44,396 bases of DNA. Source: an uncultured Clostridia bacterium. GTDB lineage: Bacteria > Bacillota > Clostridia > Oscillospirales > Acutalibacteraceae. The DNA is taken from assembly GCA_937895645.1 (NCBI GenBank), contig CALBKQ010000082.1, forward strand, positions 1 to 44,396. Direction: 5' to 3'. The notes under the pieces were generated by a model, which was not told where the DNA came from, searched no databases, and worked only from the letters and a program-made list of their open reading frames with translations. The translations under genes were made by a program, and so were the position numbers. Of this stretch, positions 5,722 through 38,144 are shown one piece after another; within the stretch, counting starts at the first letter, position 1; each line of letters opens with the position of its first letter.

Positions 5722-5814
5722 TTGGGGAGTAGTCTACTCTTTTTCAAAATATGTATAAAATTTTCGACAACCACTATATATTGTGTTTATTATCGTCTAG
5801 GAGGCTGTTTTATA

Positions 5815-14682: not shown

Positions 14683-16488
14683 ATGAAGAAATATCTTAAA
14701 AACCGTGAAGGTATGGCATTGCCTATGGTTTTGATTATTATGCTGATTTTAACTATGTTTGCAGCTGCTCTTGGTACTTATGCAAGTCAGTCTTTAAGGT
14801 CGGTTAAATATATGAACGCTCAGAAACAGGCTTATTATCTTGCCCGTGTTGGTGTTGAAGCAGGTGCTTATGCTTATCAGAACGCATCACTCAATACAAG
14901 CGATGCTTATAAGAATTTTAACACGGCTGGTTACAATGGAATTGATGCTATTGTATCAGTATTGCAGGATGTAACTGATGGTAATGACAACCTCATTAGT
15001 AATCCTGGTAAGGTTACAAGCAACAAAGTTTATGTTGTATATGATAAAAATGACATAACAGATGGTAGTATCTGGACGGGACTTAATTTTGTATCTGAAG
15101 GAACAGGTGGATTTGATAATACTTCCCCAAATATTATTGGATATTTTTCAGTTGAGGCATCTGCCGCAGCAAATACAGTTCTTCAGGAAACCGAAAATGC
15201 TGATGGTACTACTTCAATGGTAGAGACTGACCTTCCTGTTGTTGAATTTAGAAGTACTGCAGTGTGTTATGATGGTAGTGGAAATGAAGTTAAAAATGTT
15301 GTCAGCGGTTTTGTTTACCCTGCGGAGAAAGTAGACCCAACAAAGATTGCTGATGATAACGGTGTTCTTTCTACAAATGCTAACGACTTTTCAGACCATG
15401 TAACTGAAACTATTTCTATTGATTCAGGTGGTACGGTTACAAGTAATCAGGGTGATGGCTTTTTTAAGCGTATTGCAACATTCCTTAAGCGACTTTGGAA
15501 TGGTATTGTAAAAACTATTTATAAGGCAATTACAGGAAATGAGTCATTTTCAACTAAAGTTGAAATTTATCAATATTTAAGTGGTGGCGATTTAGTTTTT
15601 GATGCTCCTAAAAATTCTGACACATACAAACTTCCTGATTTTGCATCTGGTCAGTCAGCTTATGCTTACGCTTTTGCGTCATCAGGTACATTGTTCTTAA
15701 ATGCAGGTCTTGATGTTACTACCGATAAAGGTGAATATGCTACAGTTGGCCTTTTTGGTAAGGACATTGTTGTTGACGGCGATATTAAGATGGCTGTTTA
15801 TGTCAACAATCCTGACTATGCTTTGTCGGGTCTTAGCAATATTATTTCAACTTTTGGTAACCGTTATCGCCTTGGTACTGTTGTAATTGGTTCAGGTGCC
15901 AAGTCCGGTGGAGATTTTGCTGAATATTTAAGTGTCGGCAGCGGCGGAATTACTGATGAAACAGGAAAAACAATTAATAATGCAAACCGCATTTTCTTTA
16001 AGGGTAATGTAACGGTTACAGTTTATATGCAGGGTAGTAAAGCAGAAACCTATAGACTTTTCGATGCAGGTGATATTTGCTTGTTTGATGGCTGGTATGC
16101 AAATGATACTGGCGATTCATCATCAGAACCAACCTATGGTGTGGACCTTTTGAAATTCTTTGTTGACTCTGTTGTTGACAGCGACCCAAATTTTGCACAC
16201 TATGGTGAATCAGTTAGAAAAAAGCTTAAGGCAGTTCGTGAATTCTATTACGGTGACCAGCCTTCATACATAACAAAAAAAGATAATAATGTTACAACAC
16301 GACCATTACGAGTTATTGATGTTGACCACAACTCATCAATTGATAGCACTGGTATGGCAATTGATAAAAAGAAAATTACAAATGAAGTTAATGGTGTAAA
16401 GTTGTTAAGATACATTCAACAACCCGTTGTTTCACAGTCCTCAAACATTAATTGGGGACAACCTACAGATTCAGCTTGGGGAAATTAA
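14683..16488 (+). CDS. PilX/GspK-like large minor pilin-type protein lacking Glu5
   Basis: GAAAGGAG RBS. The N-terminus KNREG-MALPMVLIIMLILTMFAAALGTYA fits the PilX-N type segment: Gly precedes the hydrophobic helix, and position +5 is Met rather than Glu. Total length is 601 aa. Confidence 0.6.
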   Translation: MKKYLKNREGMALPMVLIIMLILTMFAAALGTYASQSLRSVKYMNAQKQAYYLARVGVEAGAYAYQNASLNTSDAYKNFNTAGYNGIDAIVSVLQDVTDGNDNLISNPGKVTSNKVYVVYDKNDITDGSIWTGLNFVSEGTGGFDNTSPNIIGYFSVEASAAANTVLQETENADGTTSMVETDLPVVEFRSTAVCYDGSGNEVKNVVSGFVYPAEKVDPTKIADDNGVLSTNANDFSDHVTETISIDSGGTVTSNQGDGFFKRIATFLKRLWNGIVKTIYKAITGNESFSTKVEIYQYLSGGDLVFDAPKNSDTYKLPDFASGQSAYAYAFASSGTLFLNAGLDVTTDKGEYATVGLFGKDIVVDGDIKMAVYVNNPDYALSGLSNIISTFGNRYRLGTVVIGSGAKSGGDFAEYLSVGSGGITDETGKTINNANRIFFKGNVTVTVYMQGSKAETYRLFDAGDICLFDGWYANDTGDSSSEPTYGVDLLKFFVDSVVDSDPNFAHYGESVRKKLKAVREFYYGDQPSYITKKDNNVTTRPLRVIDVDHNSSIDSTGMAIDKKKITNEVNGVKLLRYIQQPVVSQSSNINWGQPTDSAWGN

Positions 16489-31863: not shown

Positions 31864-31904
31864 CAAAAAATTACCCACCAAGGATTTCCTTGGTGGGATT
31901 TTTT
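31864..31904. terminator. Bidirectional rho-independent terminator between convergent operons
   Basis: CCCACCAAGG-atttc-CTTGGTGGG flanked by AAAAAA upstream and TTTTTT downstream. Confidence 0.8.
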
Positions 31905-32334
31905 ATGCCGAAACGTTGTTGTTAAAGATAAAGTATGTACGAAGAATTATTGCTTCGCAATCACTATCATAATCTGTGTTGTAGCAAACGGATTTTGAAA
32001 TGTTGTGTTTTTTTGTAAATAAAAGATGTGTTGCAATTCTGTCAAAAATCTTGTGACCTGCGCTTCCACCCTGTGAGTAGGGAAGATAAATATCTGCGCT
32101 TAAGGTTGTCTTCATTTCTCTTTTGTTGGTTACTGTTATTTCACCTGTTTCAAGAGTTTCGGTGAGTTTTTCGCCGATTTCACATCCCTTTACAGATATT
32201 GCTACAATAGGTTTGTCGATAGGGGTTGGCTTTATTTCGTTTTCGTAAGCCACCACAAAAGTTATGTCGCTGAATAAAGTATCTGCTGATAACGCAGACA
32301 CAAGAGTTTCAGCCAGCGTTCCGTTAAGTGTCAT
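31903..32334 (-). CDS. Phage-module protein of unknown function (143 aa), last gene before the terminator
   Basis: GGAGGTG lies 4 nt upstream of the ATG at 32334 (MTLNGTLAETL), which is preferred over the ORF-track start at 32361. Confidence 0.4.
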   Translation of the reverse strand: MTLNGTLAETLVSALSADTLFSDITFVVAYENEIKPTPIDKPIVAISVKGCEIGEKLTETLETGEITVTNKREMKTTLSADIYLPYSQGGSAGHKIFDRIATHLLFTKKHNISKSVCYNTDYDSDCEAIILRTYFIFNNNVSA

Positions 32335-32335
32335 A

Positions 32336-32671
32336 TTACACCTCCGTTGTCTGTCTAACAACCGCCCAAATATAAATTACAGAATCTTTAACAGTAATTT
32401 TTTCGGCACGGTCAATTATATATTTTTTATTTGCGCTATCGTGGATTCTGTAAGTATTGTCAAGTTTTGTAAGGTCGTGATGGTTAGGGCCAATGTAAAG
32501 ATAAACATTGTTTTTGTTGATGCCCAAAGGCGTGTAGCTGCCTTGCTGATACAATTTGTTTTTGTATCGTAATGGTTGAAGAAATGCCTTAAATAAGGGG
32601 GATTGCCAACCATCTGCACCTGAAATATAAACAGTGTTGCCATAGATGTCAAGCATTTTATTTATGTTCAT
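32336..32671 (-). CDS. Putative head-closure/neck protein (111 aa)
   Basis: A 4-nt overlap with the preceding gene. The call is positional only. Confidence 0.35.
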   Translation of the reverse strand: MNINKMLDIYGNTVYISGADGWQSPLFKAFLQPLRYKNKLYQQGSYTPLGINKNNVYLYIGPNHHDLTKLDNTYRIHDSANKKYIIDRAEKITVKDSVIYIWAVVRQTTEV

Positions 32672-33042
32672 ATTTCCACCGCCTTAAATACAAAATCCAC
32701 ATCAGTTAAGTATTCAGATGCCTGAAGTAATGTTTCATCACGAAACTTCACAGCGTTTTCAATGGATGCTGATGAACTTTTGCTCACGGTAACATCACCT
32801 GCTTTGAATGATGAAAAATCGTCATTCCCACTACTTTGTAAAAGAGTGTAGCTATAAAGTGCAATTCCTGCACAAGCGTTGATTACAGCAGGTTCATCTT
32901 CGCTCTTTACATCTTTTAGACGCTTTGAAAGTCTTGCACAGGCTGAAACGCAAAAGGGCATAGCCTTTTTACATTCTTCTGGCGATAACACGCCCGTATC
33001 TTCAAGTACTTGCGAAACTGACCAGACATTTATCATTTTCAC
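32668..33042 (-). CDS. Putative head-tail connector (gp6-like adaptor)
   Basis: A 124-aa ORF directly after the capsid gene; size and position are typical of head-tail adaptors. Confidence 0.45.
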   Translation of the reverse strand: MKMINVWSVSQVLEDTGVLSPEECKKAMPFCVSACARLSKRLKDVKSEDEPAVINACAGIALYSYTLLQSSGNDDFSSFKAGDVTVSKSSSASIENAVKFRDETLLQASEYLTDVDFVFKAVEI

Positions 33043-33050
33043 TCACCAAC

Positions 33051-34055
33051 TTACACATTCATAACTTTTGACGCATCTGCGAAGATTTTTGCAAAACCTG
33101 AAATCTGTGTAATTGCAGCGCGTTCAAGCTGACGGTCAATAAGTTTGTCAAATTCTGTCATAACACCGCCTGCGGTTACCATCTCAAGTGCGCAGCTTTT
33201 ATCAAGACCGATAAGAGTAGCGTTAATATCGTTTGACTTGATAAGTTTAGCACCAAGTGGTGTAATCATTGTGCCTTTACCGTGGAAATTAAGACCTGCT
33301 GGTGCGTCGCGGAATTCAGGCATTGTAAGAAGTTTTGCAGTAATGTCAGGTGACGCAATAAGAGTATTCATTTCATAAGGTGAAAATGAATTCCAGAGTG
33401 TAACCAAATCTTCATAAGTGATTTTGCCATCAGTTGCAGGTGAGATTTCACTGGCTGCATTCTCGTTGCCATCACCATTGATAAGAACATTCACTGCATC
33501 TTTGAACTGTGTACGGGCAATATAAGCACCAATCTGACGAAGTGTGACTGTGAACAAATCAAGACGCTGAAAACGGATTGCCTCATAAGATGCCACAAGC
33601 ATTCTGCCACGCTTTTTAAGTGTAACAAGATTATCTTGTGTATGGACAACTGTTTCAGGAATAGATGCGCCTTCTGCTACATCTTTAAGTTCCTTTTCTT
33701 CATTGGTTGGTACAGATGCGATTGTTCTGTAATCAAGACCGTTAATGTTTGTTCTTGTTGCGATGATAGCGTCAAGATTATTTGCTTCTTCAATACCCTG
33801 ACGCACTGCGCGTGATACATATTCAGGGAAAAGTACAGCAGAATCAGTTGTAGCAAAAAACTTTTCTACTGCGTCACTACCGGCGCCTTTGATTTTAATG
33901 TTAAAACGTTTTAACTGTCGTTCAAATGCGTCAAGATTTTCAAGGGAAGTGCCCTTGTAGTTTTCACTTGGGTCAATTTTTTCAAGTTCAGTAAGAAATC
34001 CCTTACCTGTACCGTAAAGACCTTTGTCGAGTTTAATTGTTTCAAAATTTGCCAT
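33051..34055 (-). CDS. Phage major capsid protein (presumed HK97 fold)
   Basis: A 334-aa ORF after the protease/scaffold gene with an AGGAGGA RBS. The call rests on position and size, with no sequence signature verified. Confidence 0.7.
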   Translation of the reverse strand: MANFETIKLDKGLYGTGKGFLTELEKIDPSENYKGTSLENLDAFERQLKRFNIKIKGAGSDAVEKFFATTDSAVLFPEYVSRAVRQGIEEANNLDAIIATRTNINGLDYRTIASVPTNEEKELKDVAEGASIPETVVHTQDNLVTLKKRGRMLVASYEAIRFQRLDLFTVTLRQIGAYIARTQFKDAVNVLINGDGNENAASEISPATDGKITYEDLVTLWNSFSPYEMNTLIASPDITAKLLTMPEFRDAPAGLNFHGKGTMITPLGAKLIKSNDINATLIGLDKSCALEMVTAGGVMTEFDKLIDRQLERAAITQISGFAKIFADASKVMNV

Positions 34056-34069
34056 TGTAAAAATCCTCC

Positions 34070-35020
34070 TTAAAATTTGAATTGGCTGTTAGCATTGTCA
34101 TCGTCATTTTCTTCCGTATAAAGCTGACCTGTAATCGGAACAATAGTATTGGCTTTTTTTCTCATAGCCTTTGAAAGTACTTCAAGACTATCAGTTGAAA
34201 GGTTTTTAATCATTTCGTTAACACAATCCTCATTGATTTCAGGAACTGCCAAAGAAAAGTACGATTTGATTTTTGTGCAAAGAGAAAGTCTGAATTTTTC
34301 ACCGTCTGCACTTTTTATTTCAAGATTTTCAATGTAATCGGAAACCTTTTTAAGTTCGTTTTCACTTAAAGTAAGCGATTTTTCCTCTTTAATGGATTTA
34401 AGAATATTTTCCATAGATTTCTCCTTTTTATAAGATTTTGTAACACCTGCGTTTCTTTGTGCAGGAACAGCCACAAATGACCATTCATAAGCGTCTGTAA
34501 TACCTGTAATCGTTTTATAACAACGCTCACCATTGTATTTTCGACCTGCTATGTGATTACAATGCTTTTCACCACAGATTGAACAAACACGCCCGTCACT
34601 TGCACAACTGATACTGACCTCTTTTTTTATTCCACTTTCAATATCACGGATAAGTGACTCATTTTTCTCACTTTTCGCCATATAACACCACGCTTTTAAG
34701 TAGGTGTAGGGTAATCCGTCGCAAGTTTTTCGTGAGTTATCTGTAATTAACTGCGTTTTGTATGTGCGTGAGTTCTGGTCCTCACTTTTCATACTGTGGT
34801 TGTGAATACCAGTTTTGCCAACAAAAAGTTTTTCAAGTGTTTTAAGGGCGCTTTCATCAAAACGTTCAAAATCACGGTCAATGTCGTTGTCGCAAAGTAT
34901 TACGCTGAAACAGAAAACATCATCTTTTGTGAGAGTTTTAAGAGTATACTTATTGATAAGAGTCACATCTTCATCTGTAGGCATACCGACTTCATTTTTT
35001 GACTGATAACATTTAATCAT
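34070..35020 (-). CDS. Putative prohead protease fused to a scaffold-like C-terminal region
   Basis: Located between the portal and capsid genes. The N-terminal half has a prohead-protease-like pattern (..RFDESALKTLEKLFVGKTGIHNHS.., ..EVSISCAS..). The C-terminal 110 aa are helical and charged, which is scaffold-like. It also has a Cys/His cluster CSICGEKHCNH. Confidence 0.5.
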   Translation of the reverse strand: MIKCYQSKNEVGMPTDEDVTLINKYTLKTLTKDDVFCFSVILCDNDIDRDFERFDESALKTLEKLFVGKTGIHNHSMKSEDQNSRTYKTQLITDNSRKTCDGLPYTYLKAWCYMAKSEKNESLIRDIESGIKKEVSISCASDGRVCSICGEKHCNHIAGRKYNGERCYKTITGITDAYEWSFVAVPAQRNAGVTKSYKKEKSMENILKSIKEEKSLTLSENELKKVSDYIENLEIKSADGEKFRLSLCTKIKSYFSLAVPEINEDCVNEMIKNLSTDSLEVLSKAMRKKANTIVPITGQLYTEENDDDNANSQFKF

Positions 35021-36147
35021 TTACTGTCACCTCCCAAAAGTGATTTTGCCTGTGCAGAATATAGTTCTGCTTTTGCCTGTTCAACTGCATCCTGTAATGT
35101 GATTTCATCCCATATCACTTGCACTCCGTCGCTATTGCCACAAAGACGCAAGAAAATATTGCAGATTTTCTCAATAACGGGTGTGAGAATTCGTCTGTAT
35201 GCAGTAAGTTCAGTTGTAAGGGCATCTGCTTGTTGTGATGACATTCTTTCAGTAGTACTCCAACTAAGCCCCAACATAAATGGTGGAACACCGAGTTTAG
35301 CAACAATCTGTTCAAGCATTTGTTTAACGGGGATTTCGCTGTCAAGCACCTGATTATCTGCGCCGATTACTTTAATCTGCACATCGCCAACTGCAACAAA
35401 ATCCTTGACGCTGTTTTTGTCCATGGCATTTGCCCACTCATTAGCAATCTGTGTTGCTCTCTCTTTGGCATAAGCACGGTCAAGCATATCAGAGCCAGGG
35501 TTGTATGTAACTGCATATCGAAGATTACCTGCACGTTCCCAATTCTGCCCGATAGACTCATAAATCTTAACAAGAATTGATGCTACAAAAGGAAGTCCCT
35601 TAAGAATAGAATTACCCGTAATACTACCAGCTTCTGGGTTAAGCGCTGAATACATAACAAGTTCTTGAAATTTTACAGGGGTGCAGTCACTGTCAGGTCT
35701 GCAAATAAGAACTTCGTTGAAGTTTTTATGATTTCTTTTAAGACATATATTGCGGATTGGCACATTGTAAAGAGAGTTAATATTGTTACCGTCCGTTACA
35801 ATTTCACCTGCAGATGTACCGTAAGTGAGCAACTGTTCAAAATAAATATCAATAAACTGTTGAAGTCCTTTGCCAGTACCACCAACATTTATGTTGCGTA
35901 TAAAATCTTCAAGTTGTGTCTGATTTCTGCCATTATTGGTTTTTACAGTAAATCCTCCTGTAAGACGAATAATTTTGTAAATTGCTGTATCAATCACAGG
36001 AATTGCTTCTCTTAACATTCTGTAAAGTTCAGGGTTGCAGATACAAGCAGGTGAGTAACTGCCCAATAGGTCAAAAGCGTGTTGGTTTGAAGTTTGTGGA
36101 GAAGAAGTGCAGACCTTTTTCTTTGCCATTTTTGAAAATATTGACAA
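35017..36147 (-). CDS. Phage portal protein
   Basis: A 376-aa ORF immediately after terL, in the size range of HK97-type portals. TTG start 8 nt after AAGGAG. Confidence 0.75.
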   Translation of the reverse strand: MSIFSKMAKKKVCTSSPQTSNQHAFDLLGSYSPACICNPELYRMLREAIPVIDTAIYKIIRLTGGFTVKTNNGRNQTQLEDFIRNINVGGTGKGLQQFIDIYFEQLLTYGTSAGEIVTDGNNINSLYNVPIRNICLKRNHKNFNEVLICRPDSDCTPVKFQELVMYSALNPEAGSITGNSILKGLPFVASILVKIYESIGQNWERAGNLRYAVTYNPGSDMLDRAYAKERATQIANEWANAMDKNSVKDFVAVGDVQIKVIGADNQVLDSEIPVKQMLEQIVAKLGVPPFMLGLSWSTTERMSSQQADALTTELTAYRRILTPVIEKICNIFLRLCGNSDGVQVIWDEITLQDAVEQAKAELYSAQAKSLLGGDSK

Positions 36148-36166
36148 ACTTGTTTTCTCCTTTCAT

Positions 36167-37429
36167 TTAGTTTCTTTCAACGGATAAGGCAAAGCCAAGT
36201 CCGTCAGTTTGTTCAAGAGCAGTAGCCACAAAATAACGAATATCGTCCATTGCGTGGTCATACTCTTTTCGTGGGGCATCGTGTACCCCGTTTGTATCCC
36301 ATCGATACATTCCGAACTCGCGGATTGTATCAACACAGGAATTGCCAATTAAAATTTCTTTGCATTTCAGTTTTTCGCTGACTTTTCGTATTCCGTCTGC
36401 CACATTGTTTTTTGCGGGGATTACGCGAAATTTACCTTCGCGACGAATACACTCCATAAAGGAGGCGGCAGAGGGGTCAACTATCACCGCTTCAATTCTT
36501 TTGTCACCTGCAAGAGTAACTAATTCATCATAGTACTCTCTGTCGGTCATCTGAAAGCCTTTTGCTTTTGAATCGTGATAGAATTCCCTTATTCTGTACC
36601 ATACGCCTTTATAAAATCCCCACAAGCCGAATGAGGCAGGGTTAACGGTACCGTAGTCACAAGAAATATAATACTGACTGCAATTTTTAGGGAGAGTATC
36701 TGTAATGTGTTCTTTTTCATTGAAAAAGGGGTAAACAAGACCGTCAACTGCTACCCATTTTCCAAGCACAAATCTTTCATAAAAAGCACCTGAATACAAG
36801 GTTTTGTAACGGTCCCGTATTTCTGTTGAAAGTGATGGATTGTCCTCCATAAGAAAGTGAAGATAAAGACAGTTTTTCTCACTTGCTTTCTTAATCCATT
36901 CAGTATGAAACCAATGACGGGGATTTTCAGGGTTGCAGTTAAACCATAGTTTAGAACCTGTTACAGAGCATCTTGCCATTGCCTGTTCAACAAATGAACG
37001 TGGCATAAGTGCTACCTCGTCAAGTAAAATTCCACAAAGTGTCATACCTTGAATAAGTGACGCAGAGGATTCATCACGACCACCGAAAAGGTAAAATCTG
37101 TTAACTTTGTTACCATTTGATATTTCAATAACATTACTGCTTTTTCTGTCTTTTACAGTAAATCCCATTTGGCAAAGTAACGGTAGTAGGGGAGTAACTA
37201 CGTTACGACGAAGGGAAGTAATTGTTTTACCACAAAGCGCAAACGAGCAATCAGAAAATCGGTAAAAAGCCCAAAGAATGAACGAAATTGACATACAAAC
37301 AGTTTTGCCACTTCTTACAGCGCCGTCACAGATAATAGCGTCATAATCCTTATACGGACTATTTTTACACCACCAGTTAAGCACAATAAGTTGTTTTTCT
37401 GAAAATTCACGAAACTTAATGTCAGCCAT
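36167..37429 (-). CDS. terL: Phage terminase large subunit (PBSX-like family)
   Basis: The start is at MADIKFREFSEKQLIVLNWW; the ORF-track start at 37624 lies inside terS. Motifs present: Walker A CDGAVRSGKT, Walker B ILLDEV, and C-terminal nuclease-type acidic motifs (DYG..., HAMDDIRY). Confidence 0.9.
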   Translation of the reverse strand: MADIKFREFSEKQLIVLNWWCKNSPYKDYDAIICDGAVRSGKTVCMSISFILWAFYRFSDCSFALCGKTITSLRRNVVTPLLPLLCQMGFTVKDRKSSNVIEISNGNKVNRFYLFGGRDESSASLIQGMTLCGILLDEVALMPRSFVEQAMARCSVTGSKLWFNCNPENPRHWFHTEWIKKASEKNCLYLHFLMEDNPSLSTEIRDRYKTLYSGAFYERFVLGKWVAVDGLVYPFFNEKEHITDTLPKNCSQYYISCDYGTVNPASFGLWGFYKGVWYRIREFYHDSKAKGFQMTDREYYDELVTLAGDKRIEAVIVDPSAASFMECIRREGKFRVIPAKNNVADGIRKVSEKLKCKEILIGNSCVDTIREFGMYRWDTNGVHDAPRKEYDHAMDDIRYFVATALEQTDGLGFALSVERN

Positions 37430-37913
37430 TATCTTCACTCTCCGTAAGTTTTCCTGCACTTCTTTCAAGAGCCTCATAGAAAGATAAAGTGCCGGTTTTT
37501 TTACCGTTTTGTGATAATTCAGAAAGTTTTTCAAGGGCTTTAAGTCTGTCAAAAAACTTGATTTCCATACCTTTTCCGCAAGTGAACTTAATTTCTGCCA
37601 CATTGAATAAATCAAGTGAATCAATGTCGGGGGAAGTATTTTGATTTGCAGAAAGAATAAGTTTCACCGCATCTGCACAAGAGCCGAAAGCAAGGCGTTC
37701 TAGACCTGCTGACACAAGGCTTTCATCAACAAGGTTTTCTTTTTCTAACTCTGTGATTTTCTGGCGGATTTCTTTTTTAGATAACAGACTTATTGCACGG
37801 TATTCGGGTAAGATTTCATATCCTGCCCTAATTGCTGCTTCTTTTGGATTCCGTAGTCGTACATATATACGACAAAAATCCAACTCTTTTTTTGTAAGTT
37901 TTCGTTCGTTCAT
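37422..37913 (-). CDS. terS: Phage terminase small subunit
   Basis: The N-terminus KLTKKELDFCRIYVRLRNPKEAAIRAGYE... is the HTH signature of Terminase_2-type small subunits. It has an AAAGGAG RBS and overlaps terL by 8 nt. Confidence 0.75.
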   Translation of the reverse strand: MNERKLTKKELDFCRIYVRLRNPKEAAIRAGYEILPEYRAISLLSKKEIRQKITELEKENLVDESLVSAGLERLAFGSCADAVKLILSANQNTSPDIDSLDLFNVAEIKFTCGKGMEIKFFDRLKALEKLSELSQNGKKTGTLSFYEALERSAGKLTESEDNG

Positions 37914-37962
37914 TTTTTACTCCTTTCCGAAGAGCTTCAAAAAATACTCTCCATAAATAGTC

Positions 37963-37997
37963 CCAAAAATAAAAAACGTCCCGCAATTTGTGGGACG
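37963..37997 (-). terminator. Minus-strand rho-independent terminator located upstream of terS
   Basis: On the minus strand: CGTCCCACAAATTGCGGGACG followed by TTTTTTATTTTT. It lies about 50 nt before the terS start. Confidence 0.6.
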
Positions 37998-38056
37998 ATT
38001 TCTGAAAATTGCCGATTTGTTTACAAAAAGTTCATAATTAAGGGCAAAAATCGGGG

Positions 38057-38084
38057 TTGACTTATATAAAAAAGAGTATATAAT
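38057..38084 (+). promoter_or_regulatory. Candidate marR/ABC operon promoter (TTGACT-16-TATAAT)
   Basis: TTGACT 38057-38062 and TATAAT 38079-38084. Confidence 0.55.
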
Positions 38085-38091
38085 AAAAAAC

Positions 38092-38126
38092 AGTTAATCG
38101 GTTAATTATTAAACGGTTAATTAATT
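38092..38126 (+). promoter_or_regulatory. Repeated GTTAAT / CGGTTAATTA elements between the promoter and marR (candidate MarR operator)
   Basis: CGGTTAATTA at 38099-38108 and 38114-38123 (15-bp period), plus AGTTAATCG at 38092-38100. TTAATTAA palindromes are also present. Confidence 0.35.
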
Positions 38127-38144
38127 TGAATAGGTAGTGAAAAG

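What the first reader, a model, noticed from the sequence alone, without database searches (positions are those of the whole stretch)
31903..37913. Intact-looking but tail-less, integrase-less 6-kb capsid and packaging module
Eight minus-strand genes in canonical order are packed with 4-8-nt overlaps or gaps of 8-19 nt: terS, terL, portal, protease/scaffold, major capsid, adaptor and two small neck-type proteins. They have good RBSs and no frameshifts or internal stops. The module ends at a strong bidirectional terminator.

There are no tail, lysis, integrase, repressor or replication genes on either side; the neighbours are an MFS transporter and a MarR/ABC operon. A decaying prophage would be expected to show pseudogenes. 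This gene content, heads and connectors only, is exactly what capsid-forming phage-inducible chromosomal islands (cf-PICIs) keep in order to hijack helper-phage tails, and it also resembles the head half of gene-transfer agents. Here it lacks the usual integrase/replication half, so it may be a domesticated or helper-dependent capsid-producing unit.
Basis: partly seen in the sequence, partly recalled or inferred. Interest (0 to 1): 0.65.

Follow-up and report, generated by a model that had tools for sequence, protein, structure and literature searches.

The report
Domesticated phage head-only operon in gut Clostridia
A gut bacterium (Candidatus Fimenecus) keeps, intact and under purifying selection, only the DNA-packaging head and neck genes of an ancient PBSX-like phage element, so it probably makes tail-less DNA-filled capsids whose use is unknown.

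Summary
Eight tightly packed minus-strand genes (37913-31903) encode TerS, TerL, portal, an XkdF-like protease-scaffold, a major capsid protein, an adaptor, a small neck protein and a protein with a tail-terminator fold. The row ends at a bidirectional terminator. The window has no tail, lysis, integrase or replication gene.

It is not a decaying prophage and not a cf-PICI.
- The same eight genes sit at the same chromosomal site in other Candidatus Fimenecus genomes. dN/dS is 0.04-0.28, like the flanking host genes.
- At least 569 loci in species-representative genomes (the best 80 are Acutalibacteraceae and allied Clostridia MAGs) carry relatives. They form a reduction series.
  - Oscillibacter: head, sheath, baseplate and lysis genes.
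  - Ruminococcus bromii: head, tube-like protein and baseplate.
  - Many MAGs: head plus a terminator-domain fusion.
  - Fimenecus: head and neck only.
- None has an integrase or replication gene nearby.
- The R. bromii-type operon is transcribed as one 10.6-kb RNA in culture.

The family differs from the published Faecalibacterium FpGTA, which has an N4-type capsid.

Most likely this is a domesticated capsid-producing unit. It is unresolved whether the particles stay tail-less or receive tails made elsewhere.

The parts
37977..37997 (-). Conserved hairpin (CGTCCC...GGGACG) followed by a T-run (37965-37976). It lies about 65-85 nt upstream of terS and looks like a terminator or insulator.
   Evidence: Sequence read. 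In the alignment of 13 Fimenecus-group upstream regions the stem is kept through two-sided changes (L021 GTCTCA/TGAGAC; L023 GTCGCA/TGCGAC). The function is inferred.
37949..37960 (-). Conserved box CTATTTATGGAG, a probable -10 region of the operon promoter. A palindrome TTGTAAACAA lies further upstream at 38017-38026.
   Evidence: It occurs once in the window. The box, written as a degenerate pattern, is found upstream of terS in 29 of 90 related loci, against 0.024 expected per 700 nt. In an R. bromii-type relative the RNA contigs begin 13 nt downstream of the equivalent TATAAG box. The promoter role is inferred.
37422..37913 (-). terS, small terminase (163 aa), with a full-length Terminase_2 match that includes the N-terminal DNA-binding part.
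   Evidence: Pfam PF03592, E 7.9e-15, residues 6-134 on profile positions 1-128 of 141; phrog_51.
36167..37429 (-). terL, large terminase (420 aa). The start is corrected to the ATG at 37429 and overlaps terS by 8 nt.
   Evidence: Terminase_6N E 1.4e-15; phrog_2 E 1.5e-52. Orthologues are called at 417-423 aa. Start located.
35017..36147 (-). Portal protein (376 aa).
   Evidence: phrog_30703 E 2e-129; Phage_portal E 1.4e-8.
34070..35020 (-). Prohead protease-scaffold fusion (316 aa). It has an N-terminal XkdF-like protease domain with an inserted Cys/His cluster and a variable C-terminal part that looks like a scaffold.
   Evidence: phrog_16951 E 4e-86. In the alignment of 27 orthologues, H75, S136 (GIKKEVS), the DAYEWSFVAVPAQ block and C146/C149/C154/H156/C167 are invariant. 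Two of the 27 members hit Peptidase_S78_2 (XkdF), best E 4.6e-5. The protease and scaffold roles are inferred.
33051..34055 (-). Major capsid protein (334 aa), the most conserved gene of the module.
   Evidence: PF25209 Phage_capsid_4 E 1.4e-18; phrog_3922 E 1.4e-97. All 8000 scored candidates have E <= 1e-10.
32668..33042 (-). g6, probable head-tail adaptor (124 aa).
   Evidence: phrog_541 head-tail adaptor, E 9.7e-5. Conserved in position in 51 loci. No match in the PDB or Pfam profile searches.
32336..32671 (-). g7, small neck protein (111 aa), probably a head-closure or stopper protein.
   Evidence: The position is conserved in 59 loci. Only weak Caud_tail_N hits, in 4 of 29 members, best E 0.0011. 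The single-sequence AF2 model failed (pLDDT 42). The assignment rests on position only.
31903..32334 (-). g8, a protein with the tail-terminator or 'gateway' fold (143 aa). It is the last gene of the operon.
   Evidence: AF2 model with 48 homologues, pLDDT 88.5. Foldseek against the PDB matches lambda gpU, T5 p142, the PhiTE, Pa193 and E217 neck proteins and the pyocin and diffocin collars (probability 1.0, TM 0.5-0.6). 136 homologues have E <= 0.001; of the 120 listed, 117 are 143 aa.
31874..31897 (.). Bidirectional intrinsic terminator shared with the convergent MFS gene.
   Evidence: 10-bp stem with 7 GC pairs and T-runs on both strands.

Best explanation
The module is a domesticated, chromosomally fixed, vertically inherited head-and-neck operon. 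It is the most reduced form of a family of PBSX-like phage-derived elements that is widespread in Oscillospirales.

Proposed mechanism:
1. The operon is transcribed as one unit from a conserved promoter box just upstream of terS.
2. The portal, the XkdF-like protease-scaffold and the capsid protein build a small HK97-type prohead.
3. TerS and TerL fill the prohead with DNA.
4. The adaptor, g7 and the tail-terminator-like g8 close the portal.

The product would be a DNA-filled capsid with a neck but no tail encoded at this locus.

Shown here:
- gene identities and the fold of g8;
- intactness, fixed position and purifying selection;
- the family-wide reduction series;
- transcription of a less reduced relative as one RNA.

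Inferred:
- that particles are made in this organism;
- that they contain DNA;
- what they are for.

My best guess is that they are tail-less GTA-like DNA parcels. These could release DNA to competent kin or acquire tails afterwards.
For: Identity of the genes:
- All eight genes are as listed in the observation check.
- g8 has the tail-terminator fold.
- The protease is XkdF-like.

Fixed position and selection:
- The same eight genes lie between MarR-ABC-ABC and MFS in other Fimenecus genomes, including contigs of 58-481 kb.
- dN/dS is 0.04-0.28 for every module gene, against 0.05-0.35 for the flanking genes, at dS 0.5-2.
- There are no att repeats.
- Four bovine-gut metagenomes show no empty-site joint and no coverage bump over the module.

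Breadth:
- At least 569 loci in species-representative genomes carry a relative.
- All 8000 scored MCP candidates have E <= 1e-10.

Reduction series:
- Type E (Oscillibacter) has sheath, tube-like protein, baseplate, XhlA-like protein and endolysin.
- Type D (R. bromii, R. bovis, Hominenteromicrobium) has a tube-like protein and a baseplate but no sheath or tape measure.
- Type B has g8 fused to a C-terminal domain that in type D is the separate last gene.
- Type A (the window) ends at g8.
- In the top 80 genome loci the counts are 20 A, 32 B and 10 D.
- Every flank that was examined holds housekeeping genes.

Expression in a relative:
- Four RNA-seq runs of a cultured organism, 98.4% identical to the R. 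bromii-type locus L109, each hold one RNA contig that covers the operon. Three of them, 10.6-10.7 kb long, start at or shortly upstream of terS; the fourth starts inside terS and runs on into the PPDK gene.
- That contig ends about 85 nt after the last gene in three runs. Its depth is equal to or above that of the neighbouring PPDK contig.

Other:
- A conserved upstream box and hairpin are shared across the family.
- No cultured phage has close relatives of the MCP or the portal.
Against: - There is no direct evidence of particles, packaged DNA or transcription for the window organism. No RNA run could be found.
- The rest of its genome was not searchable, so tail, baseplate or lysis genes elsewhere are not excluded.
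- No lysis genes are linked to types A, B or D, so how particles would be released is unexplained.
- A tail-terminator protein normally belongs to a tail. Its retention fits docking of a tail at least as well as it fits a role as a plug.
- The tree that orders the series is a midpoint-rooted NJ tree without support values.
- The assignment of the VLP-derived GenBank contigs to a DNase-treated virome study is plausible but was not confirmed.
Confidence: 0.55

Rival explanations
1. Split-locus GTA or PBSX-like element. The window holds only the head operon. Baseplate, short-tail and lysis genes sit elsewhere in the same genome and are co-regulated, as in RcGTA and in Faecalibacterium FpGTA (operons I and II, 125 kb apart). 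Complete particles would then be made.
For: - FpGTA sets a precedent for split operons in Oscillospirales.
- g8 has a tail-terminator fold, which suggests an interface with a tube.
- Relatives nested within the A/B clade (L042, L044, L091) still carry baseplate genes next to the head genes. Relocation is therefore as conceivable as loss.
Against: - No tail-like gene lies within 31 kb upstream or 6 kb downstream in the window, nor within +-10 kb in the 52 type A and B loci with enough downstream sequence among the top 80 genome loci.
- All three Baseplate_J homologue contexts that were examined lie beside head genes. None is a stand-alone operon, but the sample is small.
- In type B the terminator is fused to a domain that comes from the end of the baseplate operon. 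That looks like compaction after loss rather than relocation.
Confidence: 0.2
2. Immobile tail pirate. The capsids are released without tails and become infective by binding free tails of resident or foreign phages, as cf-PICI capsids do. Here, though, the element itself does not excise or replicate.
For: - cf-PICIs make tail-less DNA-filled capsids whose adaptor and connector proteins determine which tails they bind.
- The window has the same gene content.
- The neck genes g6-g8 diverge much faster than the MCP and terL. Against L009, g8 is 65% identical and the MCP 92%. This would be expected if tail partners change.
Against: - There is no integrase, replication module or att site, and inheritance is vertical. 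The selfish rationale of a satellite is therefore missing.
- No helper phage or compatible tail has been identified.
- Homology to cf-PICI proteins was not tested.
Confidence: 0.15
3. Prophage remnant with no present function, not yet eroded.
For: Head-only fragments are common products of prophage decay.
Against: - All eight genes are intact in every locus with sufficient sequence, across MCP identities from 94% down to 64%.
- dN/dS is 0.04-0.28 at dS up to 2.
- The site is fixed, and g8 keeps the same length in 117 of the 120 listed homologues.
- A related operon is transcribed.
Confidence: 0.03
4. The module serves a purpose that does not involve transfer. It might interfere with assembly or packaging of infecting phages (defence), or degrade and export chromosomal DNA during lysis or sporulation.
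For: - Satellite-derived capsid genes can interfere with helper phages (established knowledge about PICIs).
- PBSX particles act as bacteriocins, not as transfer agents.
Against: - Keeping a complete packaging machine with a closed neck is more than interference would need.
- No defence genes are linked to the module. PADLOC was not searched.
Confidence: 0.07

Closest known systems
PBSX-type defective prophages of Bacillus (xtmA/xtmB, xkdE-xkdX, xhlA/xhlB/xlyA)
   Same: - Phage-derived structural cluster without lysogeny or replication genes, fixed in the chromosome.
- XkdF-like protease-scaffold.
- In the type D and E relatives, the same order as PBSX: LysM protein, hub, gp45-like, gp25-like, Baseplate_J and P2-I/Mu-gp48-like proteins. 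Type E also has a sheath, an XhlA-like protein and an endolysin.
   Different: - The window copy has lost everything after the tail terminator: sheath, tube, tape measure, baseplate, fibres and lysis genes.
- Sequence similarity to PBSX proteins themselves was not measured. The link rests on Pfam and PHROG family matches and on gene order.
Gene transfer agents / viriforms (RcGTA; FpGTA of Faecalibacterium, Borodovich et al. 2026, PMC12946183)
   Same: - Domesticated, vertically inherited and under purifying selection.
- Found in the same bacterial order in which GTA-like packaging of 4.6-8.9 kb fragments was seen in faecal VLPs.
- The genes responsible are still unidentified in several of those genera: Gemmiger, R. 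callidus, Onthomonas and Christensenellaceae.
   Different: - FpGTA has an N4-gp56-family capsid protein and a Prp-type protease. This module has Phage_capsid_4 and an XkdF-like protease, so it is an independent domestication.
- Its TerS keeps a full Terminase_2 domain, whereas the FpGTA TerS lacks an obvious DNA-binding domain.
- No tail or lysis genes are linked, and random packaging has not been shown.
Capsid-forming PICIs (cf-PICIs)
   Same: The gene content is the same as the cf-PICI packaging operon: terS, terL, portal, protease, capsid, adaptor and connector, with no tail genes. cf-PICIs do release tail-less DNA-filled capsids.
   Different: - No integrase, no alpA/primase-replication half and no att sites.
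- Not mobile: it sits at one site and diverges along with the host genome.
- The extra last gene has a tail-terminator fold.

Membership tests
cf-PICI | Integrase and flanking att sites (an integrated, excisable island) | tested here: not met
   There is no integrase anywhere in the 44-kb window. No flanking direct repeats exceed chance. Four metagenomes show no empty-site joints.
cf-PICI | Replication/regulation half (alpA, primase-rep, repressor) | tested here: not met
   The neighbours are MarR/ABC and MFS/DUF2804 host genes, and they are syntenic in relatives.
cf-PICI | Own HK97-type packaging operon with adaptor and connector, and no tail genes | tested here: met
   Searches show the gene content. 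Homology to actual cf-PICI proteins was not tested.
cf-PICI | Horizontal spread (near-identical islands in different species) and helper-phage induction | tested here: not met
   Orthologous copies differ by dS 0.5-2, in step with the flanking genes. Induction cannot be tested with these tools.
Gene transfer agent (viriform) | Phage-derived structural genes without replication or integration functions, vertically inherited and under purifying selection | tested here: met
Gene transfer agent (viriform) | Encodes a complete delivery particle (head and tail), plus lysis for release | tested here: not met
   The window and +-10 kb of the type A loci hold no tail, baseplate or lysis genes. The rest of the genome could not be searched.
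Gene transfer agent (viriform) | Packages more or less random host DNA in fragments too short to carry the whole element | not testable with these tools
   This needs VLP DNA sequencing. The VLP-derived GenBank contigs with family members are only suggestive.
PBSX-like element | XkdF-type prohead protease with head genes in xtm/xkd order | tested here: inconclusive
   Peptidase_S78_2 is hit by 2 of 27 orthologues (best E 4.6e-5), not by the window protein itself. The conserved motifs fit.
PBSX-like element | Contractile tail (sheath, tube), XkdP-U baseplate and xhlA/holin/lysin cassette | tested here: not met
   All are absent from the window. They are present in the type E relatives, and the baseplate alone in type D.
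FpGTA (Faecalibacterium) | [quoted passage not shown] | tested here: not met
   The paper's supplement names RCH50849.1 as N4-gp56 family and RCH50850.1 as Prp. The window MCP is PF25209. No direct sequence comparison was possible.

The most novel reading that the evidence does not exclude
A 'capsid-only viriform'. Several lineages of gut Clostridia have independently stripped a domesticated PBSX-like element down to its DNA-packaging head and neck. They keep it because tail-less capsids are useful in themselves. Such capsids could be DNase-proof parcels of chromosomal DNA that are taken up by competent kin. A large type IV pilus cluster lies about 4.5 kb away in Fimenecus. Alternatively the capsids could be universal heads that accept whatever tails are available. 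If so, part of the unexplained GTA-like packaging seen in faecal viromes would come from this family.
Probability: 0.3. Interest if true: 0.85.

Novelty: new variant of a known kind. Interest (0 to 1): 0.62.

Why it matters
Domesticated phage particles (GTAs, tailocins, PBSX) are known, and so are mobile satellites that make tail-less capsids. This case differs from both: an immobile, host-owned, head-only element kept under purifying selection across many species.

The family includes cultivable keystone gut species. Ruminococcus bromii has the head-plus-baseplate form and Oscillibacter valericigenes has the form with a contractile tail. The graded loss of tail parts can therefore be studied by experiment.

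It also offers candidate genes for the GTA-like DNA packaging recently observed in gut Oscillospirales, whose genes are unidentified outside Faecalibacterium.

Practically, these loci are routinely deposited and counted as 'phages' in viromes and in IMG/VR.

Tried and rejected
- **Decaying prophage:** rejected on conservation and dN/dS.
- **cf-PICI membership:** rejected. There is no integrase, replication module or att site, and inheritance is vertical.
- **FpGTA membership:** rejected on the capsid and protease families.
- **Rfam scan of the window:** nothing found.
- **Flanking repeats:** only short chance matches.
- **Using the upstream box to find a regulon** (CTATWTATGGAGRGTATTTTTT in metagenome contigs): 4 hits.
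  - Two are terS upstream regions of Fimenecus-like contigs.
  - Two lie in unrelated mobile-element contexts: a RepA-like gene, and Mob/primase genes. These are probably chance matches in AT-rich DNA.
  - No second operon was found.
- **Stand-alone baseplate operons, searched through Baseplate_J homologues:** 42 hits, and the three contexts examined are all head-linked type D.
- **PDB profile searches for the protease-scaffold, g6, g7 and g8:** no significant hits.
- **Single-sequence AF2 of g7:** failed, pLDDT 42.
- **RNA runs for the window MCP:** none listed.
- **Runs for the VLP-derived record MT835508 and for the R. bromii contig L176:** these could not be requested.
- **Bulk metagenome contigs laid on the window:** even depth and no excision joints, so not informative about packaging.
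- **Genes just downstream in the second type A clade (L033, L034):** these looked like CotJB/CotJC spore-coat genes by eye, not lysis genes.
- **Six large IMG/VR contigs (for example L133):** they share only the MCP and protease (about 60% identity), and their putative terminase has no match among deposited phages. This was left unresolved.

Full report
**1. Observation**

The eight minus-strand ORFs are real, and five have clear family matches:
- TerS: Terminase_2, E 7.9e-15.
- TerL: Terminase_6N, E 1.4e-15; phrog_2, E 1.5e-52.
- Portal: phrog_30703, E 2e-129.
- A 316-aa protein: phrog_16951, E 4e-86.
- Major capsid protein: Phage_capsid_4, E 1.4e-18; phrog_3922, E 1.4e-97.

The 124-aa protein weakly matches head-tail adaptors (phrog_541, E 9.7e-5). 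The last two proteins match nothing by sequence.

Two starts need correcting. terL begins at 37429 (420 aa). The last gene begins at the ATG at 32334 (143 aa).

With these starts the junctions are 4-8-nt overlaps or 1-19-nt gaps. The operon ends at a bidirectional terminator at 31874-31897.

The rest of the window is ordinary chromosome:
- a Mur-ligase-family gene, NUDIX and Maf;
- a 24-kb type IV pilus cluster;
- YfhO, prepilin peptidase, PadR/HAAS, DUF2804 and MFS;
- the module;
- MarR, two ABC transporters, an aldolase and an aminotransferase.

There is no tRNA, no Rfam match, no att-like repeat and no integrase, repressor, replication, tail or lysis gene.

**2. Whose genome it is, and whether the module is decaying**

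A scan of one genome per species found at least 569 loci that encode a relative of the capsid protein. The closest (84-94% identity) are Candidatus Fimenecus MAGs. After them come Acutalibacteraceae, 'Ruminococcus' and unnamed Clostridia from animal and human guts. In the protein database all 8000 scored candidates have E <= 1e-10. The runs that hold the window sequence are bovine-gut metagenomes.

In Fimenecus relatives the same eight genes lie between MarR-ABC-ABC and MFS. These relatives include contigs of 58-481 kb, and in L167 the pilus cluster is also present.

Every gene is intact in every locus that is long enough.

Pairwise dN/dS against five orthologous loci is 0.04-0.28 for all eight genes. 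For MFS, MarR and DUF2804 it is 0.05-0.35, at dS 0.4-2.5.

Contigs from four metagenomes cover the module at the same depth as its flanks and show no empty-site joints.

The module is therefore fixed, vertically inherited and under purifying selection.

**3. The family and its reduction series**

I clustered the ORFs of 86 loci, and later 168. I annotated representatives and found four architectures. All begin with terS, terL, portal, protease, (a 113-aa ORF), MCP, g6, g7 and g8.

- **Type E** continues with:
  - a tail sheath (phrog_279, E 1.6e-44);
  - a 129-aa phrog_27038 protein, read as tube-like from its position after the sheath;
  - two small proteins;
  - a LysM protein, a baseplate hub, Mu gp45-like and gp25-like proteins, Baseplate_J and a P2-I/Mu-gp48-like protein;
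  - an XhlA-like protein and an endolysin.

  This is PBSX-like in content and order. Exact-sequence look-up assigns these loci to Oscillibacter valericigenes Sjm18-20, Oscillibacter sp. PC13 and O. ruminantium. Upstream of terS in L123 lies a host two-component system, not a lysogeny module.
- **Type D** lacks the sheath and the tape measure but keeps the tube-like protein and the baseplate. It occurs in Ruminococcus bromii, R. bovis and Hominenteromicrobium. It spans 10.5-11.5 kb with 16-19 genes and is flanked by PPDK, NrdD, tRNA synthetase and other host genes.
- **Type B** ends with a 280-aa g8. Its C-terminal half is homologous to the separate last gene of type D. Housekeeping genes follow directly: DHDPS, TrmB, thiamin pyrophosphokinase and HAD.
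- **Type A**, the window's type, ends with the 143-aa g8.

Among the 62 nearest genome loci with enough downstream sequence there are 20 A, 32 B and 10 D. Among the more distant IMG/VR loci there are 34 D and 14 E.

A midpoint-rooted NJ tree of TerL+portal+MCP places E basal, then D, then a clade of A and B with a nested D group. Type A arises in at least two clades. The tree has no support values. It suggests stepwise loss of tail parts, repeated in several lineages, while the head genes stay under selection.

**4. What the unannotated proteins are**

*g8.* An AlphaFold2 model built with 48 homologues has pLDDT 88.5. Foldseek matches it to tail-terminator or 'gateway' proteins at probability 1.0 and TM 0.5-0.6:
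- lambda gpU and T5 p142;
- the PhiTE, Pa193 and E217 neck proteins;
- the R-pyocin and diffocin collars;
- the SaPI1 neck.

*The 316-aa protein.* It has an invariant His, a GIKKEVS serine motif, a DAYEWSFVAVPAQ block and a Cys/His cluster, followed by a variable C-terminal part. Two of 27 orthologues hit Pfam Peptidase_S78_2, the XkdF family of PBSX (E 4.6e-5). I read it as a prohead protease fused to a scaffold. The chemistry is inferred.

*g6 and g7.* These remain assigned by position, by a weak adaptor hit and by weak Caud_tail_N hits. The PDB profile searches and a single-sequence model gave nothing usable.

**5. Expression and regulation**

No RNA run holds the window's capsid gene. For the R. 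bromii-type element, four RNA-seq runs of a cultured organism (coded B) gave the following.
- Each run holds one RNA contig that covers the operon (10,625, 10,722, 10,651 and 15,092 nt).
- These contigs are 98.4% identical to locus L109.
- They begin at 5743, 5646, 5740 and 5856; the terS match starts at 5778, so three begin at or upstream of terS and one about 80 nt inside it.
- Three end at 16365-16367, about 85 nt after the last gene. The 15-kb contig runs on into the convergent PPDK gene.
- In one run, adapter sequence directly abuts the 5' end at 5740.
- The DNA upstream is not covered.
- The convergent PPDK gene forms a separate contig of similar or lower depth in three of the four runs.

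The operon is thus transcribed as a unit in culture. Contig depth is only a rough measure of expression level.

Upstream of terS, the Fimenecus group shares three features:
- a palindrome, TTGTWAACAA;
- a hairpin kept by compensatory changes and followed by a T-run;
- the box CTATWTATGGAG.

A degenerate form of the box precedes terS in 29 of 90 loci, against 0.024 expected. In L109 the equivalent TATAAG box lies 13 nt before the RNA 5' ends. I take the box to be the -10 region of a promoter with no sigma-70-like -35 element, and the hairpin to be an insulator. Both readings are inferences.

**6. Comparison with known systems**

*FpGTA.* The only literature found on such elements in this order is Borodovich et al. 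2026 (PMC12946183).
- They saw GTA-like packaging of 4.6-8.9-kb host fragments in faecal VLPs from Ruminococcaceae, Oscillospiraceae and Christensenellaceae.
- They identified FpGTA in Faecalibacterium.
- Its capsid protein is annotated as N4-gp56 family and its neighbour as a Prp protease. FpGTA is therefore a different lineage from this one.
- Its homologues were not found in Gemmiger or Subdoligranulum, so other elements must exist.

*cf-PICIs.* They share the gene content, and they do release tail-less capsids that later bind free tails. The window element fails the integrase, replication, att and mobility criteria.

*PBSX.* It is the best match in architecture for the family's ancestral form, but the window copy has lost all tail and lysis parts.

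*Cultured phages.* No cultured phage is close. The best MCP match has 27% identity and the best portal match 29%. The only close 'phage' records are five unannotated human-faecal contigs from Mexico.
- One of them, MT835508 (46.7 kb), is a chromosomal fragment with a type A module beside MarR-ABC-ABC.
- They probably come from a DNase-treated VLP study. I could not confirm that link.
- If the link is true, it hints that DNA of such loci is protected in particles.

**7. Verdict**

The finding is real and is more than a remnant. The best-supported reading is a domesticated capsid-producing head-and-neck operon, the end point of repeated tail loss in a PBSX-like family (confidence 0.55).

Three things remain open:
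- whether tails, baseplates or lysis functions are supplied from elsewhere in the genome (0.2) or by other phages (0.15);
- what DNA is packaged;
- what benefit keeps the module.

I rate it a new variant of a known kind, with interest 0.62.

Noticed in passing
window 3432-27387 (+): A large type IV pilus cluster lies about 4.5 kb from the module. It holds two T2SSE ATPases, T2SSF, PilM, a LysM/secretin-N protein, four N-methyl pilins, unannotated 601-aa and 1317-aa proteins, YfhO and a prepilin peptidase. The cluster is syntenic in L167. Any link to DNA uptake is speculation.
   Followed up: partly
window 38060-38140: The MarR promoter region carries repeated TTAACCG motifs (TTAACCGTTTAATAATTAACCGATTAAC) that are conserved across Fimenecus. 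They are probably the MarR operator. MarR-ABC-ABC stays next to the module even in relatives with 70% MCP identity (L001, L027, L031, L037), whereas the other flank changes.
   Followed up: partly
L022 versus window 33286-33585 (MCP C-terminal half): L022 is the closest genome overall (85-91% nucleotide identity across the flanks and most of the module, dipping to about 80% in places). It drops to 69% in one 300-nt stretch of the capsid gene. This looks like a recombination patch from a divergent allele. Conversely, L009 is about 70% identical in the module but about 90% in the MFS gene.
   Followed up: partly
L053:11725-12567, L056:11718-12563 versus L079:10460-10924, L064:16448-16906: Domain shuffling. 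The C-terminal 135 aa of the 280-aa g8 in type B loci is homologous to the stand-alone last gene of the baseplate operon in type D loci. Its fold and function are unknown. It could not be modelled under the tool's input rule.
   Followed up: partly
L109:5740-16365 (R. bromii-type element): A single RNA contig of about 10.6 kb covers the whole 17-gene operon in RNA-seq runs of a cultured organism (a fourth run gives a 15-kb contig that starts inside terS and runs on into PPDK). Its depth is similar to or above that of the adjacent PPDK gene in the three runs where PPDK forms its own contig. This suggests substantial expression without induction.
   Followed up: yes
L096, L133, L138, L144, L146, L166 (IMG/VR contigs of 56-114 kb from one sample): These contigs carry an MCP (60-63% identity) and a protease related to the family, but no recognisable family terminase or portal. 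The putative terminase of L133 has no match among deposited phages. They may be true phages that share the head genes.
   Followed up: partly
MT835508.1, MT835769.1, MT835952.1, MT836604.1, MT838993.1 (GenBank 'Bacteriophage sp.'): Records deposited as phages carry members of this family. At least MT835508 is a bacterial chromosome fragment with a domesticated module. Elements like this inflate 'phage' counts in viromes and in IMG/VR, where 279 contigs match.
   Followed up: partly
window 37921-37948 (-): Between the conserved box and the terS start, the sequence CTCTTCGGAAAGGAG can pair with itself and hide the ribosome-binding site. It can also pair with the upstream GGAGAG of the box. This may be a translational switch. 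It is present only in the closest relatives.
   Followed up: no
L171:2729-2750 and L169:866-887 (metagenome contigs): Exact copies of the 22-nt upstream box occur in two unrelated mobile-element contexts. One is before a RepA-like gene. The other is upstream of Mob-relaxase and primase genes. They are probably chance matches in AT-rich DNA, but a shared promoter type is not excluded.
   Followed up: partly
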